64,000 nt of DNA. It comes from Marsupella aquatica. Lineage: Eukaryota > Plantae > Marchantiophyta. The stretch is taken from assembly GCA_973895155.1 (NCBI GenBank), contig OZ316899.1:3493455-3557454 (forward strand), given 5' to 3'. The notes below the pieces were generated by a model, which worked only from the letters and a program-made list of their open reading frames with translations, was not told where the DNA came from and ran no database searches. This document shows positions 18,598-59,031 of the stretch, piece by piece (position 1 is the first letter of the stretch; each line of letters starts with the position of its first letter). The translations under genes were made by a program, and so were the position numbers.

Positions 18598-18605
18598 TAT
18601 AAAAA
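18598..18605 (+). promoter_or_regulatory. TATA box in LTR A2
   Basis: TATAAAAA at the position equivalent to that in A1 and A3; ATG at 18704. Confidence 0.55.
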
Positions 18606-18703
18606 GGGGGCCAATCCTTTGTAGTGCACCAGTTCTTCAGCCCACGCGCCAGCTTCGACCCCATTTCTCTTGCTTATCCTTAGTCGCCTTCCCTCTCGTT
18701 TGA

Positions 18704-37510: not shown

Positions 37511-37573
37511 TGTTCATAAACTCGTAAGCTTCTTTCTCCATTCCCGTCAATTCATAACATTTCTTTTGTTGTT

Positions 37574-37924
37574 TTGGGGAAAGGCGCCTTACAAAATGGA
37601 CTTTGTTATATCAGGTCAGAGTGGAATGCAAGGAGACGATTCAAACTACGAAGGAAGATCGCGAGACACAACGTAGAAACACCGGAAAAACCGTTTGTTC
37701 TTCCCTCCTATGCAAAGAAAGCCGCAAGGAAAGCAGAAAGTGCAAGGACACTTTGTTGGGAAAACAAAGGTCTTCGGTTACGAAGGGGTGTTGACCGAAA
37801 GTTCATTAAACATCCTTATGTTGATGACTTCTCCCGCAGCCAGTACGTAGATGATGAGGCTGTGTCCACGGACAGATCCCAGAGTACAGATTCTGGTTCC
37901 GACTCAGAATCTCCGGAACCGTGA
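37574..37924 (+). CDS. Hypothetical MULE ORF or exon (basic then acidic)
   Basis: 116-aa ORF on the same strand as the cargo gene; no recognised motif. Confidence 0.3.
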   Translation: MGKGALQNGLCYIRSEWNARRRFKLRRKIARHNVETPEKPFVLPSYAKKAARKAESARTLCWENKGLRLRRGVDRKFIKHPYVDDFSRSQYVDDEAVSTDRSQSTDSGSDSESPEP

Positions 37925-38194
37925 GAAGTAGTGGGTAGTTGAGGCTAAATCTTTTAGCAGCGCCCGGTGCTTGTAACATCTGTATTATTTCCCTCTGCTG
38001 AGGGTCCTTTTAAATTGTTGATTTCTCTCTACTTGTTGATTACTTTTGACTTCTGTTCTTTACAAGCGCCTGACGCTCGCCAAATGGAATCTCTAAATGG
38101 CCGTTTAGTCTTTGTCATTTCCTGTCAACGATCATCGTCATTGGATACCAACTGCCATTTGGATTGTGTTCTTTAGTCAGTCGTCAGAAAGCCG

Positions 38195-38590
38195 TTGGGG
38201 ACCATAGTTTCGGGATGATGATTCCATAGTTTAGGGACCGGGCGGAAGGGACGACTATAGTTTCAGTTTAGGTTTGTTCGGGACGACGAGAGTTGGGGAC
38301 GTCGATAGTTGAGGACGACGATAGTTTTGGGAGGACGATAGAACGGGACGATAGAACGGGACGATAGAACGGGATGATAGAACGGGAGGGGAGACTTTGT
38401 TTCGGGAGGATGATAGAACGTGACGATAGAACGGGATGATAGTTCGTTTGGGAAGACTTTGTTTCGGGAAGATGATAGAACGGGACGTTAGAGCAGGGCG
38501 ATAGAACGGGACCATACCTGTTACCAAGGCGAAGATAGTTTCGGGAGGCAATAGAACGAGACGATGATAGTTTGATGGTCGTTTCGGAAC
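38195..38590. repeat. Minisatellite of GATAGAACGGGAC (13 bp) and GATAGTTTCGGGA variants
   Basis: Direct tandem and interspersed copies are clearly visible. Confidence 0.85.
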
Positions 38591-38722
38591 GGTAGTGTAC
38601 GCGGACCTTTATCTGGCGTCTTAGTCTTTGCGGACCTTTCTTTGACCTTTGTCGGCTATAGCACTCGCGGACGACGTTCTTACGGGAGGAGAGGTTACAT
38701 ATTAGATCGGGATCTTTGAAAC

Positions 38723-39184
38723 ATGGCGAGTCAGTATGAGCCAATGGATTGGGAGGCAGCTTTTTGTCCTTCTCGTGTGCGTCCGGAAGAGAGCCATTTC
38801 AGCTCTTTTGAATCGCGGATGGAAACTGAAGAAACTGAAACTTCCACTTTTTGCAACCGTCATGCTCTACCGTATGATGAGGCTATTAGTCCTGGAGAGA
38901 AGAACATCCCTTGGATTGTCGATTCCCCTGCGCCTCCGTTCTCTAGTCGGTTTTCGTCTCACCCGGGAGTTCTTGTTGATGGGGTACTCCCAATCGATCG
39001 AAGAGTACAAGAAATGTTTGGGCGAGTTGATTTTAAGGACAGTAATATTCCTAATGAACATTTTACGAGGGCTGTTCGTCGAGGACCTTCAGAGGGATAT
39101 GTTCGTTTGCGTGGTCTCGGCTTCAAGAAAGATCGGCGGAGAGAAGCAGCAGGAGTGGATGATGATTGCAACTCGGAAAGCTAG
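38723..39184 (+). CDS. Hypothetical 153-aa MULE ORF
   Basis: ATG-initiated, natural-looking composition, no recognised domain. Confidence 0.4.
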   Translation: MASQYEPMDWEAAFCPSRVRPEESHFSSFESRMETEETETSTFCNRHALPYDEAISPGEKNIPWIVDSPAPPFSSRFSSHPGVLVDGVLPIDRRVQEMFGRVDFKDSNIPNEHFTRAVRRGPSEGYVRLRGLGFKKDRRREAAGVDDDCNSES

Positions 39185-39893
39185 ATGGAAATTTCGTTTT
39201 GCTGATCGCTTTAAGCTAGCGTCAGGCGCTGCTAAAGTTTTCCGGATTTTGTGGCATTGAAGTCGACCTCAGCTCTGGCGTTAGAGTTTTCCCGGTTGTC
39301 TACTATTTAGGTTTTGGCTAGCGCCGGGCGCTATTGAAACGACAACGGATTTTGTGGGAGGGAATGGATCTTGACTATGTTGTCTGGGTTTGGACGCATC
39401 TTGTCTCCAAGAAACGACTAGTTTTCTAGTTAGTTTTTGGCTAGCGCCGAGCGCTGTTCATGTATTAGTCGAAAACCTCCGACGGTGTCGACCATGACTT
39501 CATGGATGGGATTTTTAGGCCAGATTGTTGATGTTGATAACTGCATTTTGTATCACTTAAGCCGAGCGCATTTTCTATTTTGCGATAATATATGCGAATG
39601 TTTTTCCCGGCCTTTCTTTTCTACTTGTATTTGTCTTGGATTTTGTGTATCTCAATTGGCAGCCGTCTTTTATGTTTCAAAAAATTGTTTCCTTGTTGTT
39701 CTTTTATTTATCACGAGGGTTTGGTGGTTTTGTTTTCTATTCTTGTACTTTCAAATGGAGATTTTGAGACCTTTTTTTAAGATAACTGTTCACGACCATC
39801 CAAACACTGTTCACTGGTAACAGCTCCTTTTAACTGGTACCAGAATCTGTTTCCTGTTACTGTTATCTGTTTGCTGTCATTTGTAAATTCCCC

Positions 39894-42058
39894 GCAGTAT
39901 TTGCGAAGGCATCGAAACATGCTAAATACCTAAGGAAAACCTTCATGAGATGCAGAGAGGTAGGTCTCAAGTTACATCCAGATAAATGTTTCTTTGGGGT
40001 AACAGAAGGTGTGCTACTAGGTCACAAGGTATCAAAGAAGGGCATCGAGATTGACAAGGGTAAGCTAGCAGTATGGCTTGACATCATGCAACCTAAGAAC
40101 ATAAAGGATGTAAGATCCTTCTTGGGTTGCATTGGGTACTATCGCCGGTTTATTAAAGATTTTGCCAAACTAGCTTTACCATTAACCAACATGCTCAAGG
40201 CAGGCGCAGACTTTGAACCCACACCAGAAAGAGTAACAGCTGTGGTGGAATTAAAGCAAAAGTTAGTGGAAGCCCCAGTCATGATAGCACCAGACTGGAA
40301 CAAGGAATTTCATGTCTTTATAGATGTCTCAGGCTTCTGTATCGGCTCAGTACTAAGTCAGTTGGATGAGAAAGGGAGGGACCATCCCATATACTTTGCA
40401 AGCCGTCAGCTTGCCGATGCCGAACGGAACTACTCCACCACAGAAAGAGAAGCATTAGGAGTCATTTATTCATGTAAAAAGTTTAGGCATTATTTGCTAG
40501 GGTACAAGGTAATCTTTCATACCGATCATGAAAGTTTGAAGTACCTAGTAAATAAGCTGGACCTTACAGGCAGGGTAGCAAGATGGATTTTGCTATTACA
40601 GGAGTTTGACTACGAGTTAAAGATCAAACCGGGGAAGCTACACGCCAATGCCGACTTCTTTTCAAGGATCACAGGTGAACCTGCCATGGATTGCATCGAT
40701 GATCGATTCCCCAACGAGGAGCTATTCGTTGTGGAAATAGCTGATACATGGTACTCGGAGATTTTGCAATTTCTCAGCACGACCAGATTACAGCCAGGGC
40801 TAACCCGAGAACAAGCCGCAGTCTTTCTGTGGAAGGTCAGACAGTATCAGTACATTAAGGGTGTACTACACAGGTATGGAATCAGCAGCACTTTTCAAAG
40901 GTGTTTAGAAAAGGGAGAGGTAAAACGAGTCTTACGGGCTATGCATGGAGAAGAGGCCGGAGGACATTTTGCCCCAGTAACCACTTCTAAAAAATATTAA
41001 ATGCCGGTTACTGGTGGCCCACCTTGCACAAGGATGTCTATCAATTCATCAAACAATGTGATCCCTGTCAACGAGCAGGAGGACCAAGGGCGTCTACAAG
41101 ACATCCACTGCACCCTATTCTACCTCTGGCACCATTTGAGAAGTGGGGTATTGATTACATTGGACCGCTGAAACCATTAACCTATCCTCGGAGAAACAAG
41201 TATATAATCCTGGCCACGGATTATGCAACTAAGTGGGTGGAGGCCAGACCGACAATGAAGGATGATGCAATTACTACAGCTCGATTTCTGTATGAGCAGA
41301 TCTTCACCAGGTATGGAGCACCCCTAGAATTAGTTAGTGATAGAGGAACCCATTTTCTGAATGATATAATTAGTCGTTTAAATGAGCAGTATTTAGTTAG
41401 ACATAGGCCTACTACTCCTTACCACCCAAAGGCAAATGGATTGACAGAACGAGCCAATGGGATTATAGGAAAGATATTGAACAAGACAGTAGCTCAGAAC
41501 AAACTCGATTGGGATGATAAATTGTTTGCTACTATTTTTGCTTACAATTTAGCCTATAAATCCACCACTGAATATACACCCTTTTTCTTAACCTTTGGAC
41601 AAGAAGCTCTGGTACCCATGCAACTTGAGATACCGACATTTCAAGTTACAATTGAGGAAAGAGTCTCAGAGGAGGAAAGCCTGAAAGAGCGAGAATATAG
41701 ATTAGAAGCTTTAGAGGAGGCAAGAATGATTTCAGCCGAGAGAGTAGAATATAGACATAATACCATGAAGCAGCAGTATGATAAAAAGTTGAAAGTAGTT
41801 AGTATTCACACAGGAGATCTTGTATTACTTTATGACAGTAGGTATAGTAGGTTTCCAGGGAAGCTTTACACTCGTTGGTTAGGACCTTTCAGGGTATCAA
41901 AGAAGTTCCCCAACGGCTCTGTGCAATTGACCAACATTACCGGAGAGGTGTACCCAGTTCGTATTCACTACGACCGCCTCAAGAAATACTATATGGACGA
42001 AGATGAAGTTGTTCGCGAGGACGCTTCACAATTAAGTGGGGAGCTATGTGATGCCTAG
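39894..42058 (+). pseudogene. pol of B, 3' part (RT thumb, RNase H, integrase)
   Basis: FLGCIGYYRRFIKDFA, FIDVSGFCIGSVL, YFASRQL..AERNYSTTERE, HGEEAGGHF..CDPCQ, WGIDYIGP, VSDRGTHF and NGLTERAN. One frameshift at ~41000. Confidence 0.93.
42031..42046 (+). other. Polypurine tract of element B
   Basis: ATTAAGTGGGGAGCTA directly precedes the 3' LTR; a near-identical tract precedes LTR A3. Confidence 0.7.
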
Positions 42059-45000
42059 CCAGGAATCACTGGGCTAGTTTAAGGGGAAAAGGGAAGTGTA
42101 CCCTAGAAACACCTTAGTATAGTTACATAAATAAGGAAAATATAAACAATTAAGGGTGACTATGGAACCCGAGCCGAGGCCGGAAGTAAGGACGCCAGGG
42201 GAGAGAACACGATTAGGGTTAGGGCACGCTAAGTGCCGGCGGCTAGGGGTAACCAACGGGAGGGGGAACCAGAGGAGGAGAGGGGTAAGGACCGCTCGCG
42301 AGGAATAGTAGCTCATTTGCAAGCACGAATTGAGCAGGCGACTACGGGCGGCCAACTACTGTCAATTGCTTAGGCAAGCGCTCAGGGTGGGAACAGATAC
42401 CGACTATCAACTCGAGAAGGGTATGAGCAACGTCAATCAAGCGGCACATTTTTGGGGATGCCTGTTCGAACGGGCAACTCAGTACATTGGGACTTACAAG
42501 GACGCAGAATCGGAGAGAGCAGCTCGAGAACGGCAGGAGCTCGCCCGATTGTGGGAGCTGCAGAAAGCTGCCTTCTTAGGAGGAAAACTCATCAAGGCTG
42601 AATTCCTGTGGATGCCTACTGGCAACGAGCTAGACGACCTGCTGTTTTGCAAAGACAGAGTCGTCGGCATCCAAGAAGCCATCAAACGCTGCAACGACAT
42701 ACACTGGGAGTTGAAGGGTAGCACGGAGGGGTGGACAAAGGCAACCGTGCTAGGAGAGACATCCACGATAGCCGAGATGAAGAGGAAGGGGAACAACAAC
42801 AAAGAGGCCACCCCGGCAAAAAGAACGCGGTCGGCGGCACCAAAGAAGCCAGCAAAACAACAGAGCAGGAGGCAAAGAGAAGCCGAGGAGGAGGAGGTTG
42901 ACCCCATCAATGCCATTCCAACAAACTATGACACCTGGAAAGGCTGGGCGGCGACCCTACCGGAGGAAGTGCAATTACACTTTGCACGGGAGGAGGATGC
43001 ATGCTTTACAACCATGCAGACCAAGAAGTACCAAGGCTTCATGGCCGAATCCGGCTTGGAAGCCTTCGTAAGATTACCATGGCTGAAGCCGGAGGTGCCG
43101 GACTCAAACTTGTTAGAATTCGTGGGATCATGGGAACCCGAGACCAATTCCACGAGGGTGTATGGGAAGGATTTCTATCTCACTCCCCGGGTGATTGCTG
43201 AAGTGTTTGGCTTGCCGATGGGTAATAAGACCAAGGTTGATACCAGGAAGACCTTACCTGACAAGGAGTTTCGGTCGTTCCCAGGACCATCAACAAAGAA
43301 TGGCTTCTTCCGGAACACCTGCACCAACCCGCACATCAGAGAGATGATCGATTTCTTGCGGGTGACCATGCACTGTAACTTGCCGAGGGCAGAGATCGGC
43401 AAGGCTCAGGTCTACCTGGCAGAAAGGCCAGACCCAAGCCGGGATTACAACGGGTACCTCCTCAACCAACTAAAGAAGATCTTGAAGGAGGAACAGCAGG
43501 TGATTGGCGTGGGAAGTGTGTCCCGGCTTGGCTATCACATGCCGCTGTTGTGCCGGTATGCCAGAAGTCAAATCTTTGCCCCAGTACTTCCCCTATCGAC
43601 AAGAGCACCGGAGGAGGTCCCGGAGCAGAGGCCGGCACCAGAGAAGCCCAACCAGCCCGACAGTCCGACGATCGAGCAGGTGTTTAGACCAAGGAAAGAA
43701 GACTTGCCGATGCAGCAGCCAGGCATGCAGAATCTGCTGAAATTGCTGGAGAACGGTTCCGGCAACGGCAACAGAACCGGCACCGATACAGGATGCTGCC
43801 CCACAAGCCGACCTAAGCCGGCTTACAAGGGAAAACCCCTTTACTGGAGTCAAGGAGAGAGGGAGGCCGGAACACGAGCCGGGAGTCCGGATGTATGTAG
43901 GAGCCTCAAGTCCCGAAGCCGAGGAAAAGCAGGCCGTAGCTCCCGGCCACGACAAGGAGAACAAGAGATCAACACGGAAGCCGGAGGAGGAACCAAGACC
44001 GGTGAGAGGTGAAGCCGTGTTCACAACAAAACCAGGAGAACAGCGGGAGAAGCCGGTAGTCCAAGTCGAGGAGGAGGCAGTAGAGGACTACAGCAATGAT
44101 GACTCCGGCTACGGGTCGGATCATCATGTTCCAGGAGTAAGGACCTGTGGCCGGTTCATCCCCACGCTCCCAAGAGTAGTTCGAGGAGACCCAAGCCAGC
44201 AGAGCAGCCCCGAGTCTCCCCCACCAGATGTCGCTCCCCCGAGCTTTGACGGCATAAAACAGACGGCGCAGGAATTTCAGGAGCAAATCAGGGAGGAAGA
44301 GGAGGCAGCCCTGGCTAGGGAAAAGGATTTACCAGGAGGAGAATGGCCAGAGGACATCAGGCGGCTTGCAGAAAAACAAAGCAACCCTCTTGCCACCGTA
44401 GAAGAAATCCGCAAGACGGCTTGGGAGCAGAGGCCGCGGTGGTTGATGCCGATGACTTCTAGTTACTCCACCTATGCTAAGGATAGAGCCATGGAGTACG
44501 GGGAAATGTGTGGAGAGCTGGCGCTCAGCATCTTTGGGGAGGAGTTGGAGCAAGGACCCTTTTTCTAGAGGGAGATGTTGGAGAAGCGCCAATTAGAAGA
44601 AGCGGTGGCTTTGGAAAGAAGCAAGAAGGACGAGGTCATCCGTCGGCTTAGGGCAAGAGAAGCCGAAATCAAAGACCTGGGGGCGGCCACGAAAGCCCAA
44701 GATGAGCTGCGGATTAAGCGGCATGAGCTAAATATCATGCAGGGCCAATTGGATACCGCACAATCTGATAATCGGATTATCGAGAATAAACTGACTCGAA
44801 CCCAAGGAGAGTTGGCCAATGCGATCAAGGAGCGAGAGAAGTGGAAGCGAGAGCTGAGGGATGCAGAGGAGGCCCACATAACGGCCAACAACCGGGCCAT
44901 GGCGGAGACCCAGAGAAGGGAAAGGGCATTGAAGGGGGAGCTCGAGGTTATCCGCGGAGCCCTTGAGAAGAAGGAGGCCGAGTTAGGGAAATCCTATCAA

Positions 45001-46800
45001 GGGATTATTGCGCTGCAGCAGGAGCTTGCGTCCCTGACGGCCAGCTTCAAAGCCGACCTGCGTGAGAAGGACAATATGCTCGATCAGACTTATGCCAAGA
45101 TGAACCAGATGGAGTCTGTCATCATTGCAGAGCTCGACAAGGAGTTAAGAGCGACCCAGGAGGAGAGAGCTGCGTTTAAAAAGGAATTGGAGGAAGCCCA
45201 GAAGGAGCTGGAGGAGGCGCGCAAGGACCTGGACAAAGTGCAGGAGGAGTTGGAGGAAAGCACGCGGAAGCTAGAGAACTTACAACGACGAGCCGAGGAC
45301 CAAACAGAGCGGCTGAAGAAACAAGCCGCAGTATTTAAGTGCTTGGCTTCATCAGGGCCAACTCAAATTGAGGCCACTAAGTTACCAGGAGTGGTACTGG
45401 CCGAAGGACAAACCGCGCCATTTGCACCAGTGCCGGAAGTAAGTGAGAAGGGGAAGGGGCCAGCTGCCGAACCAGAAAAGAAGAAGAAACGGAAACCTTC
45501 AGGGTCAAGGAGTAATACGACTCCACAGGCCGTGGTGACCATGGAGGTAAACCCAGCACCGACCTCAGGCAGGATTACGACAGAGGATCCAACTACCCTA
45601 GAAGGGGATGACAAAGCCAAGGCCAGGATACTCGATAATGAAGCCAAGGTACCCAATCTGCCACTTAAGTGTGCAGGGGAGGCCGTAGCCGAGGCTGAGG
45701 CCGTAGCCGAGGCTGAGGCCGTAGCCGAGGCTGATGTTGAAGCCGATACCGTAGCCGATGTCGGGGGTGGACCTAGTCAGGCCGATGGAGAGTTGACTCA
45801 GTCAAGGATAGGTAATCTGTCAGAGAACAAACCTATGGCAGTGGCTGAGGCGGAAGCATTGGGGGCGTCCACTGAGGGACAGACACCGCTGCCATGACGG
45901 TGGTGGAGGGCCGCTCCTTTCAAGGAGGGCGGACGTGGAGGGAGGAGGCGTGAGTGGGCAGGGCGGGCTCAGATCTCTAAGTTTAGGATTAGGATCAGGA
46001 CCAGGAGGCGGCCCTGACAATTAGCTTAGTGGGATTGCGGTTCCACTGGTAAGAGCAACACTTGTACTCCTGCCTCGCTGTACATAGGTAGATTCAGTTA
46101 GGTAGATTAGGCTTACGCTGCAAAGAATTAGGCGGATCCACTACCAGGATAAGTACCTGGGCAGCGGGGAGCTCAGGGCCTCTTCTTTAGCAAGTTTTTA
46201 GTTGCACCAGCCGGGCTAGGATCAAGTAGTAAGAGAAGCTCTCGGTTAGTCATACAATGACCCTTGTGTATATTCATGTTTCCTCATGCCTAAGAGCTGA
46301 ATAGAGTTGGCCTCACGGCTTAGTTCGCAGAGCTTGTGTATGAGATGTACTGTTTGTATGGCAAGTGCATGGTATGACTCAGTCAGAAGGAGTCATTTTG
46401 CTATTTGTGTGTCGCATTAACTTGTGTGAAGAGTGCCCACATCAACTAATAGATGAAGGAAAGTAAGCAAGGGAGTGAGAGTTGGATGTGTCAAGCTGAG
46501 AGAGGTCTTAGCGGCTTAACCAAGCCTATTGGGGATCATTCCGGCGGCGGAATCCAAATATACCTAACAAGAAGGAGGGGAAGACAAGGGAAGGCCTAGA
46601 TTAGGCCGGCTACGTATCTCATGACCCGATGAAGGATCTGTCCAGTATATGTGTGTAAAATGTTAATAGTAGTAGTAGAGGGAGGTTAGCAGCGTCCCAT
46701 GCCACTAAGCCACGAAAACGGCCTCGCCAAGCGCGAAACCTGCGGGAATCGGCTTGTGAAGGGGGTTTCTAAGGTTTAGGGAGCCATGGGACGCACCACA
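42047..46800 (+). repeat. 3' LTR of element B (4754 bp)
   Basis: Matches the 5' LTR. The 19-bp length difference is accounted for by an 18-bp tandem duplication (~45690-45725) and one extra base near 45490. Confidence 0.95.
42330..45897 (+). pseudogene. Long ORF(s) inside the B 3' LTR
   Basis: ORFs 42330-44012, 43891-44568 and 44575-45897; TAG at 44566 where the 5' copy has CAG. Confidence 0.7.
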
Positions 46801-46805
46801 CATAC

Positions 46806-48359
46806 TCGGCTGCAGGGGAGGAATATGTCCCTCACAGAGGAGTGGCTCAGGATGATCTTTGGGCTACCCGAGGGCGATCACCGAGTTGAATCACGGGCTC
46901 TCGGGGGCAAGGGAGCCAAGTACCAATCCTCAAGTTTTCCCTCCAAGGGGTCAATGGACAACGGGTTTGTGATGAGGACCTGCCTCATCCCCAAGATAGC
47001 TGAGCGGTTGGAGTTCCAAAGGTAAGCCCTCCACATGATGGAACCCGGGGTGAGATCTCTGCTGCCAAGGTTATCTAGGTCAAGAACTATTGACCTAGGA
47101 AGTGGGCTTTGTACTTCGCTAAGAAGTTCCATGAAGAGATGGAGCGGCAAAGGAAGTCGCTATACATTGGCAGGAAGGCGTATTTTGCGAGCCACATCAA
47201 GATCATTCTCGAGTGGTACGCCCGGTTTGATTGACGAACCCTTCCCCGGGTCAATGTAACTAAGTTGGTCCCGACTAAGTGGATCTTCCCAGCCTTGGAG
47301 AGACGGCCTCAACCCGAGGCCCAAAGTCCGGCGGCAACGCAGGCCTCACCCATCCAACCTCCATAGGTAGCGGTAGCCGTGGCCAAAGAAGTACCGGAAG
47401 AGGCAGTGATCGCAACCTTAGATGCGATCAACCAAGTCGGGCCTGGTGCAAAAGTTGGGGCGGTGGAGGCCTTGCCTGAGCTCGAGGGTCCAAAAGACCC
47501 ACTAGTGGCTATTCCAGAGGACGGCCCGATGGTGGAGGAGGACACTCCAGCCCCTTCCAACACTACATCCCCAGGGCTGGATGTCACTACCCCGGCTCCC
47601 ACTCGAGTTAATGTCTACCCGTGCCCAACTCCAGATGGGCATAACCTGGACCACCTAGAACTCTTCGTACCGGGTACATTTCTAAATGGGCTTTGGGGAG
47701 ATTTCTCCCAACAGATAGCCCGAGATACCGGGGAGTTCATGGCTTGGAAGGTAGCCTACTTCTTCAATCAGGAGTTGGTTACCGTAGTAAAAGCAGGTCG
47801 GGCTCAGTCGGAGGCCCTTCAGCGGATAGAGCGATACCGGGTTGAGTCCGTGTACCTAAAGGATGAAGTTGCAGCTCAAGAGGCTGAGCTTCTGCAACTA
47901 TGACCCAAGGTTGCAGTCGCCGATGAGTTGTTAGCAAATGCGCATGCCCTTACCGCCTTAGCCAAACAGGCCAAAGCCGAGAAGGAGGCCGAGATTGCAC
48001 GGCTCCAGACCTAAGTTGACAGTTTGAAGAACCAAACTGTCATCTGGCAAAAAGACCTAGAGGAGGCCGAAGAGCGGGCCCAGCATGACACTACGGAGAT
48101 TGCCACCCTGTAGGCCAAAGTGGCACGGCTTCAAGCCAAAGTCGAGAAATAGACCCAGGTGGTGGATAAGCTGACAAACAACGCCCAGCAACTGGAAGAG
48201 GCATGTTGGGAGGCAGCTGAGGAGACGGACGCGGCAAAGCGAGAAAATGAATCTTTGCTGGACCAAGTCCAGCTCCTCAAGGCGGACAACGACAGACTCC
48301 ATAGGCAGCAGGATGACCGCTCCCACTCGGATGGCTCTGGCAAGCGCACCAGACATTAG
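46806..48359 (+). pseudogene. LTR-internal ORF of A2, 3' part (conserved domain plus coiled coil)
   Basis: Continues T-RLQGRNMSLTEEWLRMIFGLP and ends ..GSGKRTRH, as in A3; multiple stops. Confidence 0.75.
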
Positions 48360-50689
48360 CGGAGGGTTAGGCTTAGAATAGACTTAGGAGTAGCTAAAAC
48401 AGGCTGGTAGGACAAGTGCCGGCCAGAAGATAGCGGCGCTGACACATTAGCCAGCCTGTGTAGAATAGGTTAGACTAATAGGACAAGCAAGCACCAACTT
48501 AGCAAGGATATAAGTTAGCATAGATTTGGGCACAAGGCCAGGCCGGTACTCAACCCTTAGTATTTAGCGGCCCCCCAGTAGAGGTTAGAGAGGGGGATTT
48601 TAGACTCAGAAGTTGGCCATTCGCAGTACGTACGGGGAGTCCTGAACTCGGTGAAGTACCGGAGTACCAAGGGGAGGGTATACGACTAAGCTCGTTGGGC
48701 GAGTGCGGAGCCGGGCTCCGTTGTAGTGTATACTCCTCGGCCTTGGGCCCGGTCGTTCACGAGGTGTCAGGTCAACCAATTGTAAAGTGTATGATCATAA
48801 ATGAATGAAATCCTTTCTCCTTAATTCCTTTGTGTAAATTGAGATTTCTGTTATGTATGTATGCATGTATGAGTCTCGTGTGCAAGTATCAATGTCGGGC
48901 CAAACATGTTATGCCAACCGTGCACGGGGTGCAGGATACGGGTACGGGGTTGCGAGCCCGGGTTGAGCTCTTGTACTAACGGATCCGGATCGAAGGCGGT
49001 AACACAAAGGCTTAGAAGTCCGTGAGCCGGGGTCGACCCCGTGTCGACTAAGGTACGTTCCGGCGGCATAACAGTACATAACAATAAGCGCACTTAGCGC
49101 TAGTTTACATGAATTAGGAGCATTCCGTGCGTCCCTCCCTGCCCAACCCTCATATTCACAAAGGATGTGCCTGTCTAAGCCAAAGCCCGGGTTAAGGCCT
49201 AGGCTGACGACGTGACAATATACTATTTGGGAATTTTGGCACCTAGGTTTCCACATCAATGGGTTTCAAAGGCGACCAGTACATTAAGTTTTTGAGTCAC
49301 TGGTTATTGTAAATGGTAATACATACTTGTGACAAGTATTTGTGTCATCAAAAAAGCATTTGGCCCCAAACTTCCTCCATCTTCTAAAATTGATTGGCGA
49401 GGGGATAATAATGTTAGAGAGGTATTATGGAACCTGGAGATTGACTCCATTACTACCCTCAACATCCCAGTAAAATTCCCGTTGTTGTCCCAAAGCCTTA
49501 TTTGCCGACCATGTGTCATCATGTCATGCCCGGGCCCTATCTTCCTTGGATCCCACAAAACAATGCCTGGCCACATTGGATCCCATTTTCCCATAAGAAA
49601 TTCAGACCTGGGTTTAGGGTCGCCCGTTCAGTCACACCGGTCACACAAGTCACAAGTTCACGTTGGGAGTTAAGGTACTCTCGTGAAGTTGAGCAGCGAG
49701 TGCAGGTGCGAGGTCACTACTGCAAGTTTGAGGTGCAAGGTCGCTGCTACAAGATCGGGGCTGGGCGGTGAGTTGAAGTGCGAGCTTGGTGCTGAGCAGT
49801 GAGTTGAGGTGCAAGGGCACTACTGTGAGGTCGCTGTGAGGTTGTTGATGTGAGGTTGCTGCTGTGAGGTTGCTACTGTATCAACCTATTCATTAAAAGA
49901 GTGGTTTTTTTTGTTCACAAATGAGTCTTGAAATGTACACTTTCATGGCCCCAAATGTACACTTTTGTGTCTCTAAATAATGTACACTTTATAGGCCAAA
50001 TCACATTAGTATTATATTATTAAACAATACATATTATATTATTTAATAATTCACAGAGAGTGGAGGATAGGAACTTATAAAAATATTTCATCCCCATTTA
50101 AGGACCATTGATACTGTGTGAACAAAATAACATCATTCCAAATAGATTATAAAATATTTTTATACAATTATCTGCAAATTTACAATGAGTACGAACACAT
50201 TTCTAGTACTATCCAAGGGGCTTAACATGAGTCAATGAAATATCTAAACCAAGTGCTCCGTACAATGTGTATTTGAGCATGTGCCCCTGTCTCCTTTCCT
50301 ATCTACCCTATTGTCACGGTTGCAACGCCCTTTATTTTCAGGGAGTTGAAATTTGGTGGTGTTGTTCCTAATGGCTATAATCTCCTGCAAAAAGTGTCTG
50401 GGATTTTCTCTATATGGACCTGAATAGTCCTTTCCTAAAAATGATTTAGCAAGTGAGTTGACAAGTGCATTGTCAAGTTCCTCCTCAGGACGTAAACTAC
50501 ATATATGGTGCTTTACATTCCAAGGGATCTCATTGTTGTTGAGGTCCAACACACTATGCGTAAAGTGTGACTTCCAAATTTTTGCTGCAAATTTCTTGCT
50601 AAGTTGATCATAAGTAATCTCATTTTTTGCCTTGTCTCTCTTCATGTGCAAAAGAGACCACTTTGGAGAGTTCAGAAGAAGATAACATC

Positions 50690-51260
50690 AAATGTCACTT
50701 GCATGTGAAAGTTTCTCAAGACATGGCCAAAGAATTGCTAGAAGAAAATTATCTCCACGATTGGCATGCGTGTAGGGCACTGGAAATAATCCGGTCATGT
50801 CTGGGTTGGCAAAGGCCTTAAGGGGGGAGTCATCCACAAGGAGGGTGTTGGTTTCATCATATAGATTTCCAAATGCATTCCATACCATCCAAAAATCCTT
50901 CAATAGCACATTTGCCTTTCCGTTTGTAATGTCACGCCTTTGAATGCTTGTGTCAAAAGCTTCCACCTGTGTGAATACAAACTGGAGTTTTGACCTCTCC
51001 TCATCAATGAACATCATGTTCAACATTTTCATTGTTCGCAGTATCCCAACACATGTCCAAATTGCAACGTCAAATTTGTCAAAACTTAAGAAACTCATGG
51101 ACCCCTGGTCATTTTGTATACATGCGACTAATACCATTTTTTTCTATCCCAATGCACTCCACTTGAGGTGACAATATTCCTGGATGTGCCCTTGCTTTGG
51201 AATTCAACAGAATCCCATAGTATTTTATTAAGGTCCAAAATCAGCAACTTCCGCTTGACG
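50690..51260 (-). other. FCP1/NIF-like phosphatase domain
   Basis: RKLLILDLNKIL (~51218-51255), (R)PGVHEFL, DVAIWT, LLKDFWMVW..Y..TNTLLVDDSPLKAFANP..GLFPVPY. Confidence 0.8.
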
Positions 51261-51977
51261 GGACAGGTCTCAATTCTGCAAGTGCACCAAACACCATTCT
51301 CAGAGAAAAGACCAAAAGTGAACTTTGGATTAGGATTGTCTCAGTCCAAAAATACAAGACAATGGCTGACAAAAAAGAAAATTAACCTACATACCGTTTT
51401 TAGAAGCCTCACAATGTGTAGACGGATATGGAGACTTTAATTGGTGAGCGCATTCTGTGAGACCGAGAAGTATTTTAGATTGGTATGAATAAATAGAAAG
51501 TCAAAAGCTGAATTTCATTTCAAAATAAGAGATCCATATTCATCAATAATCATGTCAACACCAAGCTCTTGTTGGATTTCAAAATTGACATCTGAAGTAC
51601 TTTGTTCTACCCAATAAGGTGAAGTCCAAACAGGAGTTAACAACCCCAATTCTGCCCTCTTATACTCCTTATTGAGAATTGAAGGAGCAGCATCCAATGA
51701 TATTTCTTGGCCTTCTACCCCATTACTTGCTTTTTCAGACTTCTCATTTCCTTCTACCCCAGCTCCATCGGGAAGTTTCCCATCCAACCACAACTGGCAT
51801 ACCAAACTCCATAAATCAAAAAGAGCATTGTCCGCAAACAGTAACCAGTAAACATTTTGACAATCTTTCCTTCCCATGGTCATTCTTGCAAGAGCCAACC
51901 AATCCTACAATTGCAAAGGAAAGTCTTTTAGTTCTCCATAACTCAATTGTTTGAAAGCACTCAGGTGCAGACTGAGA

Positions 51978-52312
51978 TCATCCCAGTCCAACACAGAACT
52001 AGACAATATCAGTGGAAATATTTTATTGAATGTGCATGATTTAGTTTGGACTGGGACCATCCTAGTCCAAAACAAAACTAGACGGTATCAGTGGAAAAAT
52101 ATTCTATTGAATGTGCATGAATCCATTTGGACTGGGACCATCCCAGTCCAACACAAAACTAGACGATATCAGTGGAAATAGTCTATTGAATGTGCATGAT
52201 TCCATTTGGACTCGGACCATCCTAGTCCAACACAAAACTAGACAATATCAGTGGAAATATTCTACTGAATGTGCATGTATCCATTTGGACGTGGACCATC
52301 TCAATCCAAACC
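51978..52312. repeat. Four ~79-bp tandem units, each with a hairpin TTGGACTGGGA-CCA-TCCCAGTCCAA
   Basis: Units are visible directly; 11-bp stem and 3-nt loop at the unit junctions. Confidence 0.9.
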
Positions 52313-52399
52313 AAACTTGAAGCTTTGTGGTCAAAGACTACCATCTCAATTGTAACCACATATGGAGAGTCTGCGGTATTGTACCCATCAAGCAGTAAC

Positions 52400-52990
52400 A
52401 CTTCGTACCTGAAATTTTTGATTGTCTTGAGCGTTTGTTTTGTTGTCCTCATGTTTTGGCCGGCTAGGTCTTCCACATTCCACAAATTGTCGCCTAGCAT
52501 GAACAACTGTATCTTTGAAGCAGGACTGAAACACCATCGTGCTATTGATAGCATTAGATCGCATTGAATGCTCAACTAATATTGACGATGCTGTTCGATG
52601 AGATAATATTCTTGACTTTCAAAATTCCAGCTTTTTTGCCAATGTTGTTAGCTTGGCATCCTTGTTTGCCCATTCTTGAATCCATCTGGTTGCTCTGGCC
52701 GAATGTTGACCGCTAATGGCAAGGAATTGAACCTCACCCTTTTTCACGGCTGCTACAAAGTCCCTCCTATCTGATTCCGTGTTGTCATACTGCATTAGGT
52801 TTCTATGTTTTACAGTGTAAGGAATCAAGTTTGCTATGTGTGGTTCATGCCCCCGATTTCTTATCATGGAATTGGCCACCTCCTTTACATGGTCTGCATT
52901 CAACATTCTGTAACAGAGTCTTGCCGACGCAGGGAAAATACTCTTTACGGGAATAGAAAATATCAAATTGATCCCAAACATATAATATTG
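52400..52990 (-). other. ParB/Srx-like domain of element D
   Basis: FSIPVKSI..CYRMLNADHVKEVANSM...VQFLAISGQHSARA resembles ParB R...l.eLa.S and the G.HR/HS box. Confidence 0.6.
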
Positions 52991-54187
52991 CTCCATTTGT
53001 TGTAGTACCTCATTACCTTCTAAGACCTTCTTCTCCTCAGGAGCGTCCAACTGCTCGTCCACATCTTGTGAATGCACTGTCAGGTTTTTTGTAGTGTCAT
53101 CCATGATGGCACTGTCAATTTTCTGTTTCTTCTTCTGTCTTGGCCTCTTTTCACTTGCACTCGGCTTCGCAACCGGACGTTAATTTCTTCTCAATTGGCT
53201 TCTCAACTCGACTTCTCATGCTTGGGTTCTCAAATGGCTTCTCAACTGGAAGTTTCTTCTCAACCGGAGGTTTCCTTTGGCTTTGTTTTCATTTTCCCAC
53301 TGCTCTTTGAGAGGTTGCTGCTGTAGTTCCTGCGGTCTCTGTTGTAGGTTTTGGAGCTTTCTCTGGCGCTTGCTCGGGCACAGGGTTTGTATTCACCGCT
53401 GGAAGCTTTCTCGCCTTGGACAAAGATTCTATCCACTGCTTTGCTTTGACTAAATCAAACTTGGGAGCAAATGCAACATCTTTATCAATTAAAACCAGGC
53501 TCCTCTGACTCCAACGATAACAATCCAGCTTTCTCAAGTAAATTGCTTAACGTCTAGGTAGTTGGAAAAGAGAAATTGCCTTGGTGCTTCATCATGTTGA
53601 GTTTCAAATATTGAAACCCATACATAATGTCAACTGGAAGCATACCAGTTACCCCGTCGACCAAATTCTTTGTGTCATAGGTCTTTGGAAAAAATCCCAT
53701 TGACAAAACACTCAATTCCCCACTTGAGTGCCATTTGACATTGAATTTAGAGGAGTATGCCTTTGACAGAAGGTTAACTTTAACCCAACGAGACTTATCG
53801 TGCATCTCCAGAATGACCAAATTCATCCCTCTCCCCCCAATGCCAACAGAGACCACAGGTTCACAAACAAAAGTCAGGCTATCATTTGCCTAGAACTTTA
53901 AGGTCAAAACAGGTTCATTCGTGCTTGATGGCACTTCATTATTAAGCGGGGTTCTTGAGAACTCAAGCCCCCATCGGAAGCCTGGGGATCTCTCATCTAG
54001 TAAGAATCCGTCCAGGCAGTCGGTCGATGCAATCGTGGGTTTGAAACCAACAAGATCGTTCCCTGCATCATAAACGCCATCCATGTTAGACTTAAAACCT
54101 TTAAAACATTCGAATAACTCTTGTTGGATTAGGATGGTCCTAGTCCAACTTGAGATGGTTTTAGACTTGCTCCTACAATCGGGATTC

Positions 54188-54355
54188 AATCTCCTGGGTG
54201 GATTAGGATCATCCGAGTCCAACTTTGGATTGGGATCATCCGAGTCCAACTTTGGATTGGGATCATCCGAGTCCATCTTTGGATTGGGATCATCCGAGTC
54301 CATCTTTGGATTGGGATGGTCCCAGTCCAACTTTGGATTTGGATGGTCCCAGTCC
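54188..54355. repeat. 27-bp palindromic minisatellite (in frame as DPNPKLDSD repeats on the minus strand)
   Basis: GGATTGGGATCATCCGAGTCCAACTTT repeated ~6 times. Confidence 0.9.
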
Positions 54356-55614
54356 TCTTAGACTTAGGGAGGATAGGTGATGGATACTTACAAGGGATTC
54401 ATGATTGAAATTGTCTGCCAGAGTCTTCAAGTGCCAGTTCTACAGAGTTGCTTATAGAGGAGAGGTCAAACTCCTCCGTTGCTTCCACAGTGGACAGCAC
54501 AGGGATGCAATTTGCTTCCATCTTGCTGACAAGTGGCATCGTGACACGTGGTGTCTTAGCAGGCGTCTGATCTAGGGCAATGAAAAAGAATGGAGGTGGA
54601 GGCGGAAGGCAGAGGCAAGCGGAGACAGGGAGCGAACGGAGAGCGAAGAGTGGAGAGCGAGAGCAAGAGAGCAGAGAGCGAGAGAGCGGACGGCGAGAGG
54701 AGAGTGAGGAGCAGAGCAAGAGGAGGAGGAGAGCGAGAGTGAGGAGCGGAAAGTAAGAGAATGAGAATGAGGTCCTGGCTGGACCTCTTCGTCCCTTTAC
54801 CCCCTCCTGCCTCACCCCGGCCTGCGTACGGCCGGTTGCCTCTGTATGGCCTTCCTGCGTACGGCCTGCTCCTGCGCACAACTTTCTGGCCTTCCTGCGT
54901 GCGGCCTGCTCCTGCGTATGGCCCGTTGCCCTCACCCTGAATACGAGCCTCCTTCCTTGATGTCCTGCCCAACAACCTTGGATGGTAGTCCACGCGCAAT
55001 TAGGCTCGTGAAGATAAGGTGTGTCCGCAAGCTAAGGTGAAGGGGTACTCGACCCTTATCTTCATGCAATTTCCGGTTGAGCCAACTTGAGCGAAGGGTA
55101 TAATTTGGGAGACGCCCACTTCGGAGCTCATTCTTGTTCTAGTTTCCCAAATCTAAGCTCCATGTAATCCGGAGTTTCTCTTAAAGTTTTATGTATTGAG
55201 CCACTTACCTTCAATGGGTCAGCTTATGTAGCTTCTTGACTTTTGGAGTCCTCTCAATTTTTTTACAGGCATGTGTGGTTTAGGGTTCAGTAGGTTTTTC
55301 GCTCCCAAGATTTAGTGGCATATAGCTTGTATTTCAAGATTCTGGGAAAGTTTTTACCCATCTACAAACAACAATGTGTACCCCTTGGATGTGATATTCA
55401 TCTTCTACTAGATCTTAATACTAAGGTGAGTATAAGGTTAATGCATTCAAATATAAGGTTCCATTATTTCATGAGACTGTATGTAGACATTAGGGTCTGC
55501 CTTAAGACCATGCAAACTTTAGGCTACACCATATAGGGAGATCCATAAAATACGGAGTCTTCCTAAATTTGGATTTGTCTTAGCTTAAGATGTTTGAAGT
55601 TTATCTCCCATTAC

Positions 55615-56520
55615 ATGGGTTGGTCTAGGATGGTCCTAGTCCAAGTTTGGATTTGGATGGTCCTAGTCCAAGTTTGGCTTAGGATCATCCGAGTCCAACT
55701 TTGCATTGGGATCATCCGAGTCCAATTTTGGATTGGGATGGTCCGAGTCCAACTTTCCATTAGGATGGTCCGAGTCCAAGTTTGGACTTGGATGGTCCGA
55801 GTCCTAGTTTGGACTTGGATGCTCCGAGTCCAACTTTGGATTAGGATGGTCCGAGTCCAACTTTGGATTAGGATGGTCTGAGTCCAACTTTGGACTTCGA
55901 TGGTCCAAGTCCTAGGTTGGATTGGGATGGTCTGAGTCCTAGTTTGGATTGGGATGGTCCGAGTCCTAGTTTGGATTGGGTTGGCCCGAGTCCTAGTTTG
56001 GATTGGGATGGTCCGAGTCCTAGTTTGGATTGGGTTGGCCCAAGTCCTAGTTTGGACTTGGATGGTGCAATTCCAAGTTTGGATTGGGATGGTCCTAGTC
56101 CAACTTTGGACTGGGATGGTCCCAGTCCAAATCCGGACTTAGATGGTCCCAATCCAAATCCAGAATTGGAGGACCTTAGTCCAAATCCAGACTCGAAGGA
56201 TTGCAGTCCAAATCCAAACTTGGATGGTCCCGGTCCAAATCTGGACTCGGATGGTCCTAGTCCAAATCCAGAATTGGAGGATCGTAGTCCAAATCCAGAC
56301 TCGGAGGATTGCAGTCCAAATCCGGACTTGGATGGTCCTGGTCCAAATCCGGACTCGGATGGTCCCAGTCCAAATCCAGAATTGGAGGATCGTAGTCCAA
56401 ATCTAGACTTGGATGGTCCCGGTCCAAATCCGAACTCAGATGGTCCCAGTCCAAATCCAGAATCGGAGGATTGTAGTCCAAATCCAGACTTGGATGGTAC
56501 CGGTCCAAATCCAAACTTGG
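55615..56520. repeat. Large 27-bp (and 33-bp) palindromic minisatellite array
   Basis: TTGGA(T/C)TGGGATGGTCC(C/G)AGTCCAA units over ~900 bp; produces repetitive LDWDGPSPS ORFs. Confidence 0.92.
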
Positions 56521-56959
56521 TTGGTCTAATTAAAATTTTAGATTCAACATTTGGTCTGAATCAAAATTTGCATGACTTTGGTTTTAATCCATTTTTTTCA
56601 GTGTGTAGGATAATAGGAAAAGGATGTCTCAAAGGTTTTCTAGGGGCGATGATGTGACCTTGACAATGGATGGTTACAACATTGGAAACGGGACAATTCA
56701 AAAGACAGATCCGCGAGAGAGTGTTCAAAATATTGTGTTGGGAGAGAATTGAATTGGGGTTCTCATTGAGAAGGCCTTTGGTGAGACCAGGAAGCTCCCT
56801 TTTCCAATACCTAGGGTGGAAAATATTCATGATGCCATTGACTCATGTGTCATTTGGGATATGTCATGTGCATATCGATCTGCGGATAAGATTACTCAAA
56901 ATGCATCAGTATTGGTATTTGTTCAACTCGAAAAGATAACAACATCCATAATTTTGCAA

Positions 56960-58140
56960 ATGTAGAGGAGGATGCTTCGACCACCCTAAGGCCAGGCAAT
57001 GGGGTTGAAATGTTTATCTCTGGCCATTGTGTGGCCTTTGGAGTTGTTTTCAAGACCGATCCAATGGAGAGATGTCATAACATATTACTCGGTGAGTCTC
57101 GGGTTAGTGTAAAAATCACAGATGTGATTCATGGTAGTAAGACTTTACCTTATGCACATGGTGGAGCTGCAACAATTGAAGAGGCAAAGGGCTCTTGGGT
57201 TCTATGGGATGTGGCTGACATCCACAATAAAGTATGGGATGTTGATATCGATGGGAGCAACAAATCTTCCTCTAAGAAGCAAAAGGACAAGGCGGATTTT
57301 GTTTCACAGTCTTGTTTGGCGAACACCATAGACACTAAGCGTGACTATTTTCATCGGGAAAACTGGATGTCATAGTTGGTTGAACTCTACACTAGTTTGC
57401 ATCAAACCAAAATGGTTGCCACTAGAACGATCATTGTCCTTCAAGTGACGGAGGCAGTTGATGATGAAATTCTTGGTGATGACCATGTTGGGATTGTTGT
57501 GAAAGATGTCGTGGCAGCACAATACTTTCCCAACATCCACAAGGGAGTAGTGAGTTTGATTCGATGGCGGATTGATTCAACAAAACTAGTGGCAAATGGA
57601 AAAATTTTGTCAGACATTTTGGTGGAAGGTTCTGAGAGGATGGACTCAATGGATAGGGATGAACTCAATGCAGATGTAAGTGACAGAGGAGTACCGCGTT
57701 CAAGGCCTTACAATTTTAACAAGAGGAATCAAGTAGATCCAAATGAAAAGAAGAGGAGGTTGTTGGAAACCAAGGCAATTTCAAAAACAACAGAGGCGTC
57801 AATTGATGACGTGAAAAGAGAAAATTGTTGCAAGCAAAAATGTTGTCTCATTATGCCAAGGGAAAACATCAAAGATATTAGGATGGAATTTCATGGGATG
57901 TCAAGCTAGTCAAAAACATCACACATTTTCAACCTCTTTCACTATAGAGAGGATGATGTTCATGATAAGGGACATCATGTTCTTAAGGGTATGGTCGTAT
58001 GCAGACATGCATTTGCAATGATCCACGGTTTTAGTCACACCAAATATTATGATTACAAAAGGAGATATGTGGAGGGTTGCAAAATTGGGTTCCATGGCAA
58101 TACGGGCTTGATGAAAACAAGGGCAAATACCTTGCATGCA
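56960..58140 (+). pseudogene. Transposase-like gene N-terminus (two Tnp1/EnSpm-like beta domains plus Cys/His-rich region), truncated by LTR A3
   Basis: One frame with two stops: VAFGVV..D..CHNILLGESRVSVKI..LPY..TIEEAKGSWVLW; second copy VAT..I..ILGDDHVGIVV; CCKQKCC..R..F..VVCRHAFAMIHG..YY.YK..HGNTG. Confidence 0.5.
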
Positions 58141-59031
58141 TGTCACGTCGTCGGCTTCGGCCTTAACTCAGACTTCAGCTTAGACAGGCACATCCCTCGT
58201 AAATCTGAGGGTTCGGGCAGGGAGGGAAGCGCGTAATGCACCTAATTCACGTAAACTAGCGCTAAGTGCGCCTACTGTTAGATACGGACATCTCCTAGGT
58301 ATGGTTTGTGTTCCGCCGCCGGAACGTACCTTAGTCGATAACAGGATCGACCCCGGCTTAAGGACTTCTAAGCCTTCGTGTTGTCCGCCTTCGATCCGGA
58401 TTCCATGATACAGGTCCTCAACCCGTGCTCGCAACCACATCCCCGCAAGCTGCACCTCGTGCACGATTCGGGTAGTGCGTTCGGCCCGGCGTTGTCACCT
58501 ATACATGAGATTCACACACACATACACGCGCACAAGCATACAATCTCGATTTACACGAAGGAAATAATGGGAAAGGATTTTACTACATAGGGGACATGTG
58601 CGTACACTTGGTTGACCCGATAGCTCCGGAATGAACAGGTTCAAGGCCGAGAGTAACTACAACGGAGCCCGGCTCCGCACTCGCCCGACGAGCTTAGTCC
58701 TACCCCCTCCCCTTGGTACTCTTTCACTCCCAGAGGCCGCGACTCCCCGCACATACCACGGATGTCCAACTCTGAGACTAAAAACCCCCCTGCCTCTACC
58801 GAGGGGTGCACTAAATACTAAGGGCCGAGGGACGGGGTGTCCTCTCGCCAAAGATTCGCTGACTAAGGTCCTAACTAAGCTGACAGTCAGGCCAGAAAAC
58901 GGCTGTGTCTTATTAGAAGATCCTAATCTACGCAGGCTGGACAGCATGGCAGCGCTGCTGTACCTAAGGCAGGTGCCTGTCCCAAGAGCCTGACTAAGCT
59001 ATCCTAATCCTAATCTATTCCTGCTCCACTG

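What the first reader, a model, noticed from the sequence alone, without database searches (positions are those of the whole stretch)
50244..54540. Second ParB-like gene fused to an FCP1/NIF-type phosphatase
The minus-strand gene contains CYRMLNADHVKEVANSM...FLAISGQHSARA and, further down, LLILDLNKIL / PGVHEFL / NTLLVDDSPLKAFANP, the hallmark motifs of the FCP1/SCP HAD family that includes RNA Pol II CTD phosphatases. A transposon-borne DNA-clamp-like protein with a CTD-phosphatase-like domain suggests local control of transcription (inference). This copy is degraded.
Basis: partly seen in the sequence, partly recalled or inferred. Interest (0 to 1): 0.8.

Follow-up and report, generated by a model that had tools for sequence, protein, structure and literature searches.

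The report
Transposon helper gene with deleted middle
A broken helper gene on a likely jumping gene, likely from a liverwort, has a predicted bacterial ParB-type fold and a phosphatase-like domain that lacks a standard catalytic residue; the two lie close together here likely because the middle of the gene was deleted, and the intact protein would likely bind the element's own mirror-image repeats, a design already reported in algae.

Summary
Both domains are real. The first folds like ParB/Srx (AF2 pLDDT 94; the top eight structural matches are ParB/Srx-family, with middling scores). The second passes Pfam's NIF cut-off.

The direct fusion is likely a deletion artefact of this dead copy. Four relatives stop aligning at 51728-51734 and run on for 42-452 residues. 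Contigs of related runs leave the window's sequence at 51727 and at 51713. Relatives carry helical and weakly methylase-like sequence there.

Splice phases suggest NIF is the last exon of a longer gene in intact copies (about 65%); a separate NIF gene is not excluded, and no RNA run was listed.

A CTD-phosphatase role is unsupported: the motif reads DLN, not DxDxT, and the ParB motif lacks the GxxR arginine.

The gene lies opposite a transposase-like fragment in a high-copy repeat. All 38 copies of one near-palindrome lie outside exons. The likely role is self-recognition of the element, as proposed for algal transposons.

The scan has noted ParB/methylase-like/NIF cargo transposons on other pieces of this genome many times. 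I found no paper on the NIF domain in such elements.

The parts
54392..54539 (-). Likely first coding exon (ATG at 54539; one in-frame stop)
   Evidence: ATG, GTAAGT donor, phase 1 matching the next exon; no homologue tested
54063..54391 (-). Likely intron 1 with 7 palindrome copies (27-bp array at 54199-54355)
   Evidence: GT..AG ends
52409..54062 (-). Exon: unnamed N-terminal domain (about 54030-53515), charged linker, ParB/Srx-fold domain (about 53060-52409); several stops and two frame changes
   Evidence: tblastn of P0001-P0003 and P0005; AF2 and fold searches; stops per frame
51905..52408 (-). Intron 2, with a 79-bp repeat that holds 5 palindrome copies
   Evidence: The annotated Calypogeia protein P0012 joins the two flanking exons at this place
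51741..51904 (-). Exon after the ParB domain (start of the next, likely helical, region); 3' end approximate
   Evidence: P0012 E=1.4e-13; three Riccia proteins E=0.001-0.005; profile hit E=4e-12
51713..51727 (.). Likely internal-deletion junction; the 13 bases between the two ends overlap a 12-bp copy of sequence 39 bp away (likely filler DNA)
   Evidence: Loose ends at 51727 (X1, X3) and 51713 (X4); homology ends at 51728-51734 in 4 relatives; duplication printed
51562..51712 (-). Coding segment downstream of the junction (linker exon remnant)
   Evidence: One open frame; 5 of 7 listed substitutions synonymous in it, against 0 and 1 of 7 in the other frames; two 3-bp indels
51395..51454 (-). 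Likely 60-bp mini-exon, phase 1 at both ends; its upstream donor at 51561 is weak
   Evidence: Only one open frame, and it fits both neighbours; poorly conserved in a diverged version (table 5)
51276..51394 (-). Likely last intron, 44% T, one palindrome copy; holds an alternative ATG at 51297
   Evidence: GTATGT..TTGCAG ends
50244..51275 (-). NIF/FCP1-type HAD domain with DLN motif, then a helical extension and a C-terminal Cys cluster; frameshifts near 51263, 51140 and 51085, and one internal stop
   Evidence: Pfam; relatives P0083-P0085; indels against other copies
55620..56510 (.). 27-bp tandem array between the two divergent genes; 25 palindrome copies
56890..58140 (+). Transposase-like 5' fragment, head-to-head with the helper gene, cut at 58140/58141 by an LTR element
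   Evidence: Weak Pfam Transposase_23 hit, E=0.015, below cut-off; other copies run on past 58139-58140; Sola1-like Cys motifs are recalled, not tested
49603..58140 (.). Part of the high-copy element held in the window; left end is only a candidate (AATT at 49599-49602), right end lies outside the window
   Evidence: 916-3780 contigs laid per run in 4 of 4 runs, all 30 bins covered; one X4 contig spans 49262-49707, which argues against this end

Best explanation
This is a broken, likely internally deleted copy of the helper gene of a likely large cut-and-paste transposon, and the intact protein would likely use its predicted ParB-type half to bind the element's own palindromes while a likely weak or inactive phosphatase-like domain sits at its far end. 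Shown: the domains, the lesions, the palindromes lying outside exons, and that relatives continue where this copy jumps. Inferred: the deletion; a longer ancestral order of N-domain, ParB fold, helical region, methylase-like fold, linker, DLN-type NIF and Cys cluster in one mRNA (about 65%); and binding to the palindromes to keep the element's two divergent genes expressed or unsilenced. The NIF domain would more likely act as a phosphate-binding or interaction module than as a Pol II CTD phosphatase. This copy cannot make the protein.
For: Fold. NIF. Deletion: 4 of 83 proteins hit the exon after ParB, all stop at 51728-51734, and 97, 275, 42 and 452 residues are left over. A profile of those C-terminal parts matches only its first ~70 of 402 positions in the window. 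Loose ends lie at 51727 (X1, X3) and 51713 (X4), and none of 32 listed contig pieces (of 1051) bridges the junction. One gene: linker, mini-exon and NIF exon join in phase 1 once the extra base that other copies have near 51263 is allowed for; a diverged version keeps the same acceptor (loose end at 51265, read by hand). Palindromes: 38 of the window's 39 hits lie in the element, in three introns and the divergent spacer, 0 in exons. Precedent: PMC12477816 and bioRxiv 10.1101/2025.02.11.637652 (passages).
Against: No RNA was seen, and no protein with both domains was found: none among 3 and 0 hits in the 'longer' searches (weak tests) and none among 83 proteins. The Riccia relatives that carry the methylase-like tail have no NIF domain. 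The methylase-like part rests on sub-threshold Pfam hits (E=0.0039, 0.023), with no solved-structure hit for P0071. The donor at 51561 scores weakly (matrix recalled). In a diverged version the mini-exon is replaced while the supposed intron beside it is well kept, with 6 differences in 117 bases. An ATG at 51297 would allow a stand-alone NIF gene. The read laying tables are cut, so copies that share the junction are not excluded. Structural scores are middling (Z<8). The palindrome pattern was drawn from the sequence itself and most copies are tandem. The transposase class and the element ends were not established. Binding is untested.
Confidence: 0.5

Rival explanations
1. Same element and same deletion, but NIF is a separate small gene downstream of the ParB gene: the upstream frame ends at the stop at 51517, and NIF starts at its own ATG (51297) or behind a non-coding exon.
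For: In-frame stop at 51517 and an ATG at 51297 that would be in frame in copies with the extra base. Both NIF relatives were recorded as stand-alone proteins of 332 and 388 aa. Several earlier notes call it a separate gene (not checked).
Against: Leaves only about 220 bp for a terminator and promoter. A strong acceptor is kept in a diverged version. Phase-matched mini-exon. The stand-alone relatives come from contigs under 2 kb, so their gene calls may have ignored introns (inference).
Confidence: 0.25
2. One reading: a ParB clamp tethers an active FCP1-type phosphatase that dephosphorylates the Pol II CTD on the transposon.
For: NIF family membership; the first Asp and the DD motif are kept; the palindromes could act as loading sites.
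Against: DLN replaces DxDxT in 4 of 4 rows; no BRCT hit; nearest solved relatives are UBLCP1 and CTDNEP1; the GxxR Arg is absent.
Confidence: 0.1
3. The short ParB-linker-NIF form is a real, spreading subfamily that lost its middle and was selected as a direct fusion.
For: The frame stays open across the junction; depth does not fall to zero in the junction bin; tables are cut.
Against: One frame in three is open by chance. Loose ends lie on both sides in 3 runs. This copy's private changes are mostly non-synonymous, 8 of 9 in the NIF core, and it has many stops.
Confidence: 0.07
4. Both domains are passively carried fragments with no role for the element.
For: No expression or activity data; the standard catalytic motifs are altered.
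Against: Synonymous bias among versions in the linker and the NIF start; near-invariant residues across 53 ParB-side sequences from several liverworts and unnamed sources; conserved Cys cluster at 32-43% identity.
Confidence: 0.08

Closest known systems
Accessory gene of Ectocarpus Sola1-1_Ec32 (PMC12477816; passages, reference passages and supplement rows seen)
   Same: Giant DNA transposon with a ParB-like gene on the strand opposite the transposase; proposed to bind and modify its own element.
   Different: That 1104-aa protein has ParB plus an N4C/N6A methylase; 'phosphatase', 'NIF' and 'FCP1' occur 0 times in its 5 held supplements. Here the methylase-like part is missing from this copy and a DLN-type NIF domain follows. 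Sequence homology to it was not tested.
PAG3 of Bostrychia Plavaka elements (bioRxiv 10.1101/2025.02.11.637652; passages; supplements not seen)
   Same: ParB-like accessory gene beside tandem arrays of inverted repeats; proposed self-binding.
   Different: EnSpm/Plavaka transposase; ParB is fused to a 2OG-oxygenase and the methylase is in a separate gene.
VANC/VANDAL anti-silencing system (PMC5735166; abstract and outline only)
   Same: Works-like model: an element-encoded protein whose targets are element-specific tandem motifs.
   Different: VANC activity is shown by experiment; no homology to VANC was tested or is expected; nothing is shown here.
ParB/Srx superfamily (Noc, PadC, KorB, SerK, SbnI, Srx; PMC12704722, passages)
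   Same: Predicted core fold; ParB-methylase fusions are common in phages.
   Different: GQHS in place of GxxR; an HTH and a dimerisation domain were not shown; 'phosphatase' occurs 0 times in that survey's main text.
NIF/FCP1-SCP HAD family (UBLCP1, CTDNEP1, TIM50-labelled clusters)
   Same: Pfam PF03031 above cut-off; RP..HEFL, AIWT and DD motifs align.
   Different: DLN(K/G) in place of DLDET; extra C-terminal helical region and Cys cluster; no BRCT hit.

Membership tests
ParB/Srx fold | Core alpha/beta ParB N-terminal fold | tested here: met
   AF2 pLDDT 94; ranks 1-8 of VIA-align are ParB/Srx-type, Z 4.7-7.7, rmsd 2.8-4.6; Foldseek best E=1.7e-3. Scores are middling; no Pfam ParB hit.
ParB CTPase DNA clamps | GxxR P motif with the nucleotide-binding Arg | tested here: not met
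   G118 51/53, Q119 50/53, H120 53/53, S121 51/53, no Arg. The positional match to GxxR is inferred from the strand-helix pattern and recalled topology.
ParB CTPase DNA clamps | HTH DNA-binding and C-terminal dimerisation domains | not tested
   The region after the ParB core is cut off in this copy; no longer relative was folded.
NIF (PF03031) HAD family | Pfam NIF match above the curated cut-off | tested here: met
   27 bits (window), 57.9 and 67.7 bits (P0083, P0084) against 21.8
FCP1/SCP CTD phosphatases | DxDx(T/V) motif I | tested here: not met
   DLNK or DLNG in 4 of 4 rows that cover it; aligns to DLDET of CTDNEP1
FCP1/SCP CTD phosphatases | BRCT domain of Fcp1 (recalled) | tested here: not met
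   Only NIF is found in the window piece, P0083 and P0084
FCP1/SCP CTD phosphatases | Activity on phospho-CTD | not testable with these tools
   Needs an assay
Sola1 DNA transposons | Terminal inverted repeats and 4-bp AWWT target duplication (PMC3845634, passages) | tested here: inconclusive
   AATT at 49599-49602 precedes a candidate end, but the other end is outside the window and an X4 contig spans 49262-49707
Sola1 DNA transposons | Sola1-type transposase core | tested here: inconclusive
   Only the 5' part is in the window; weak Transposase_23 hit, E=0.015. The Sola label comes from earlier notes and recalled motifs.
ParB-methylase transposon accessory genes | ParB-like gene opposite a transposase, with inverted-repeat arrays | tested here: met
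   (the transposase itself is only weakly identified)
ParB-methylase transposon accessory genes | N4C/N6A methylase domain | tested here: not met
   Absent from this copy; only sub-threshold hints in 2 of 28 scanned relatives

The most novel reading that the evidence does not exclude
Liverwort transposons encode one multi-domain self-targeting protein that joins a ParB fold without the nucleotide-switch Arg, a methylase-like fold, a DLN pseudo-phosphatase and a zinc-binding tail. It loads on the element's private palindromes and uses the NIF domain to hold a phosphorylated host factor, such as the Pol II CTD, on the element. That would be a transposon anti-silencing system that works through the transcription machinery and not through DNA marks.
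Probability: 0.12. Interest if true: 0.75.

Novelty: new variant of a known kind. Interest (0 to 1): 0.38.

Why it matters
ParB-type accessory genes beside inverted-repeat arrays are described for algal giant transposons as an untested self-recognition system. Liverwort elements add a NIF/HAD-type domain that my paper searches did not find described. This window also holds two unrelated ParB-like genes on two different elements, each with its own palindrome, which gives a natural specificity test: each protein should bind only its own motif. This particular copy adds little beyond showing how a deletion can mimic a new two-domain fusion.

Tried and rejected

No RNA holder was listed; this is no evidence on expression.

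Related-locus scans found nothing: metagenomes 0 of 90 and 0 of 87 pattern matches confirmed; viral contigs 0 of 14. Two scans did not run because the NIF alignment had no usable stretch.

The 'longer' search with the NIF part gave 0 of 564 candidates.

The AF2 model of NIF relative P0083 was too poor to use (pLDDT 49), so no fold search was run on it.

P0070, a repetitive 944-aa hit, was dropped as spurious.

No solved-structure hit for P0002, and no meaningful one for P0071.

No useful Pfam hit for the linker, exon 1 or the left flank.

The transposase fragment was not classified beyond the Pfam scan of its unbroken frames.

Earlier-finding look-ups by near place, by sequence and by words gave nothing.

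Paper searches with no relevant hit for a transposon-borne NIF domain, a DLNG-type FCP1 study or a DUF3723-ParB link. Searches returned only the Bostrychia preprint as relevant.

Rejected: the two ParB-like genes of the window as paralogous copies (no cross-hit); contig depth as a measure of copy number or constraint; the 1-of-9 synonymous count in the NIF core as evidence against coding, because those sites are nearly fixed in the other copies and so are this copy's own decay.
Full report
SETTING. The window is repeat-rich eukaryotic DNA with nested LTR elements. No whole genome is held. The only named relatives of the gene are from the liverworts Calypogeia fissa and Riccia sorocarpa, so the source is likely a liverwort (inference). 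In 4 of 4 related runs, 916-3780 contigs lie on 49000-58300, many of them 80-99% alike, and all 30 bins are covered. The whole region is therefore a repeat with many versions.

OBSERVATION. The quoted motifs are all present. The downstream domain passes Pfam's NIF cut-off (27 against 21.8 bits), as do its two relatives. The upstream domain has no Pfam ParB hit. It has 78 hits among 50%-cluster representatives, one of which (P0070) I dropped as spurious. An AF2 model from 53 sequences is confident (pLDDT 94). Foldseek's best matches are Noc, ParB, PadC and Srx, but none reaches E<=1e-3. The independent wide search ranks PadC, KorB, pNOB8 ParB, SerK, SbnI, Srx, Atu1540 and Srx first to eighth, Z 7.7-4.7. 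The scores are middling, but the agreement in family supports a ParB/Srx fold. The Atlas links the domain to unnamed and DUF3723 fungal clusters (0.95-0.96), a lead only.

GENE ANATOMY. A minus-strand model has its ATG at 54539 and introns at 54391-54063, 52408-51905, 51561-51455 and 51394-51276, all GT..AG. Intron 2 is supported by the annotated Calypogeia protein P0012, which joins the same two exons. The copy has many stops and frame changes. At NIF-core sites where the other versions nearly all differ from this copy, 8 of 9 changes are non-synonymous, as expected of a dead copy.

THE 'FUSION' IS LIKELY A DELETION JUNCTION. Of 83 proteins searched against the window, 4 hit the exon after ParB (P0012 at E=1.4e-13; three Riccia proteins at E=0.001-0.005). 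All four stop at 51728-51734, with 97, 275, 42 and 452 residues left over. A profile of these C-terminal parts matches only about positions 7-71 of 402 in the window. Independently, contigs from the ParB side leave the window sequence at 51727 (X1, X3; median 150 loose letters in X3), and contigs from the NIF side leave it at 51713 (X4, 4 contigs). The bases between overlap a 12-bp copy of sequence 39 bp away, which resembles repair filler (recalled). None of the 32 listed pieces bridges the junction, but 1019 were not shown, and only 24 of 141 loose ends were listed, so copies that share the junction are not excluded. What was lost is only hinted at: 2 of 28 scanned relatives have sub-threshold N6_N4_Mtase hits, and P0071 has no solved-structure match. 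Earlier notes on other pieces of this genome describe 12-13 kb elements with a methylase-like part in this position; I could not check them.

ONE GENE OR TWO? The segment just downstream of the junction is coding: one open frame, 5 of 7 listed substitutions synonymous against 0 and 1 of 7 in the other frames, and two 3-bp indels (only the best-supported rows were listed). It can be spliced in phase 1 to a 60-bp exon whose only open frame fits, and from there in phase 1 to the NIF exon, given the extra base that other versions carry near 51263. A diverged version keeps the same acceptor (read by hand). Against this: the first donor is weak; the mini-exon is replaced in a diverged version while the supposed intron is well kept; an ATG at 51297 would give a stand-alone NIF frame; and no database protein has both domains. 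No RNA run was listed. I put one gene at about 65%.

CATALYTIC MOTIFS. Motif I of the NIF domain reads DLN(K/G) in 4 of 4 rows, against DLDET in CTDNEP1. The second Asp is the proposed general acid/base of DxDxT enzymes (PMC9062747, passages). The nearest solved relatives are UBLCP1 and CTDNEP1, and the nearest Atlas clusters are TIM50-labelled plant and giant-virus NIF proteins. Nothing points to the Pol II CTD. The ParB-side motif is GQHS in nearly all of 53 rows, with no Arg; PMC12704722 (passages) reports loss of nucleotide binding when the P-motif Arg is changed, and lists ParB-fold proteins that are not clamps. The NIF protein ends in a conserved Cys cluster, likely metal-binding (inference); its model was too poor to test this.

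ELEMENT AND PALINDROMES. A 21-bp near-palindrome occurs 39 times in the window at up to 2 mismatches, 38 times inside 49603-58140: 1, 5 and 7 in three introns, 25 in the spacer between the divergent genes, and none in exons. Shuffles gave a mean of 0.02, but the pattern was taken from the sequence and most copies are tandem, so the placement counts for more than the number. On the plus strand a transposase-like fragment (weak Transposase_23 hit) is cut at 58140 by an LTR element, where other copies run on. The left end is uncertain and the right end is outside the window, so the superfamily is not established here; Sola1 is a lead from earlier notes and recalled motifs.

MECHANISM. Most likely (inferred): the intact helper protein binds the element's own palindromes and keeps the two divergent genes expressed or unsilenced, with the NIF domain as a weak enzyme or binding module. 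This follows the proposals for Ectocarpus Sola1-1_Ec32 (PMC12477816; passages and supplement rows) and Bostrychia PAG3 (bioRxiv 10.1101/2025.02.11.637652; passages; supplements not seen), and it would work like VANC/VANDAL (PMC5735166; abstract). None of these steps is shown here. The window offers mild support: the other ParB-like gene (33.7-37.5 kb) is unrelated by profile, lies on a different element, and has its own palindrome, with 15 of 17 hits inside that element. Its ParB fold was not tested.

NOVELTY. The ParB-plus-repeat design is in print for algae. A NIF domain on such elements was not found in my searches, which cover open-licence text only. The scan has already noted such cargo elements on other pieces of this genome. 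Verdict: a new variant of a known kind, seen in a dead, likely deleted copy; the direct fusion and the CTD-phosphatase reading are not supported. Interest 0.38.

Noticed in passing
window 28429-39880: A second cargo element inserted in a gypsy pol: 24-bp inverted ends (87.5%), a Mutator-like transposase (recalled motifs, no Pfam hit), an unrelated ParB-like gene with a methylase-like tail (Pfam E=0.0078; PDB DpnA E=0.003) and 15 copies of its own palindrome.
   Followed up: partly
window 15336-16025: A 690-bp insertion inside an LTR with two copies of the same palindrome as the 28.4-39.9 kb element and similar end sequences; likely a short non-autonomous relative.
   Followed up: no
window 50244-50330 (minus): C-terminal C-x-RD-x11-C-x-N-x2-C-x2-(C/H) cluster, conserved in NIF relatives at 32-43% identity; possible zinc site.
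   Followed up: partly
P0002 345-549 (relative of window 52409-53060): The nearest Atlas clusters include fungal DUF3723 proteins (score 0.95); DUF3723 is recalled as Starship cargo; no paper held both terms.
   Followed up: partly
window 53515-54030 (minus): A conserved unnamed N-terminal domain ahead of the ParB fold, shared with relatives (25-34% identity); no Pfam family; not folded.
   Followed up: no
window 18231-49217: Nested LTR elements: an LTR (18231-19768 plus 46801-49217, with ATATA on both sides) split by a full element with 4.75-kb LTRs that are 97.6% alike (19768-24502, 42047-46800).
   Followed up: partly
window 49223-49602: High-copy segment left of the candidate element end; one X4 contig spans 49262-49707; no Pfam hit. 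Whether it belongs to the element is open.
   Followed up: partly
window 16610-17966: 408-bp tandem repeat, 3.3 copies.
   Followed up: no
window 2714-3340: CACTA Tnp2 transposase remnant (Pfam Transposase_21, E=6.9e-34).
   Followed up: no
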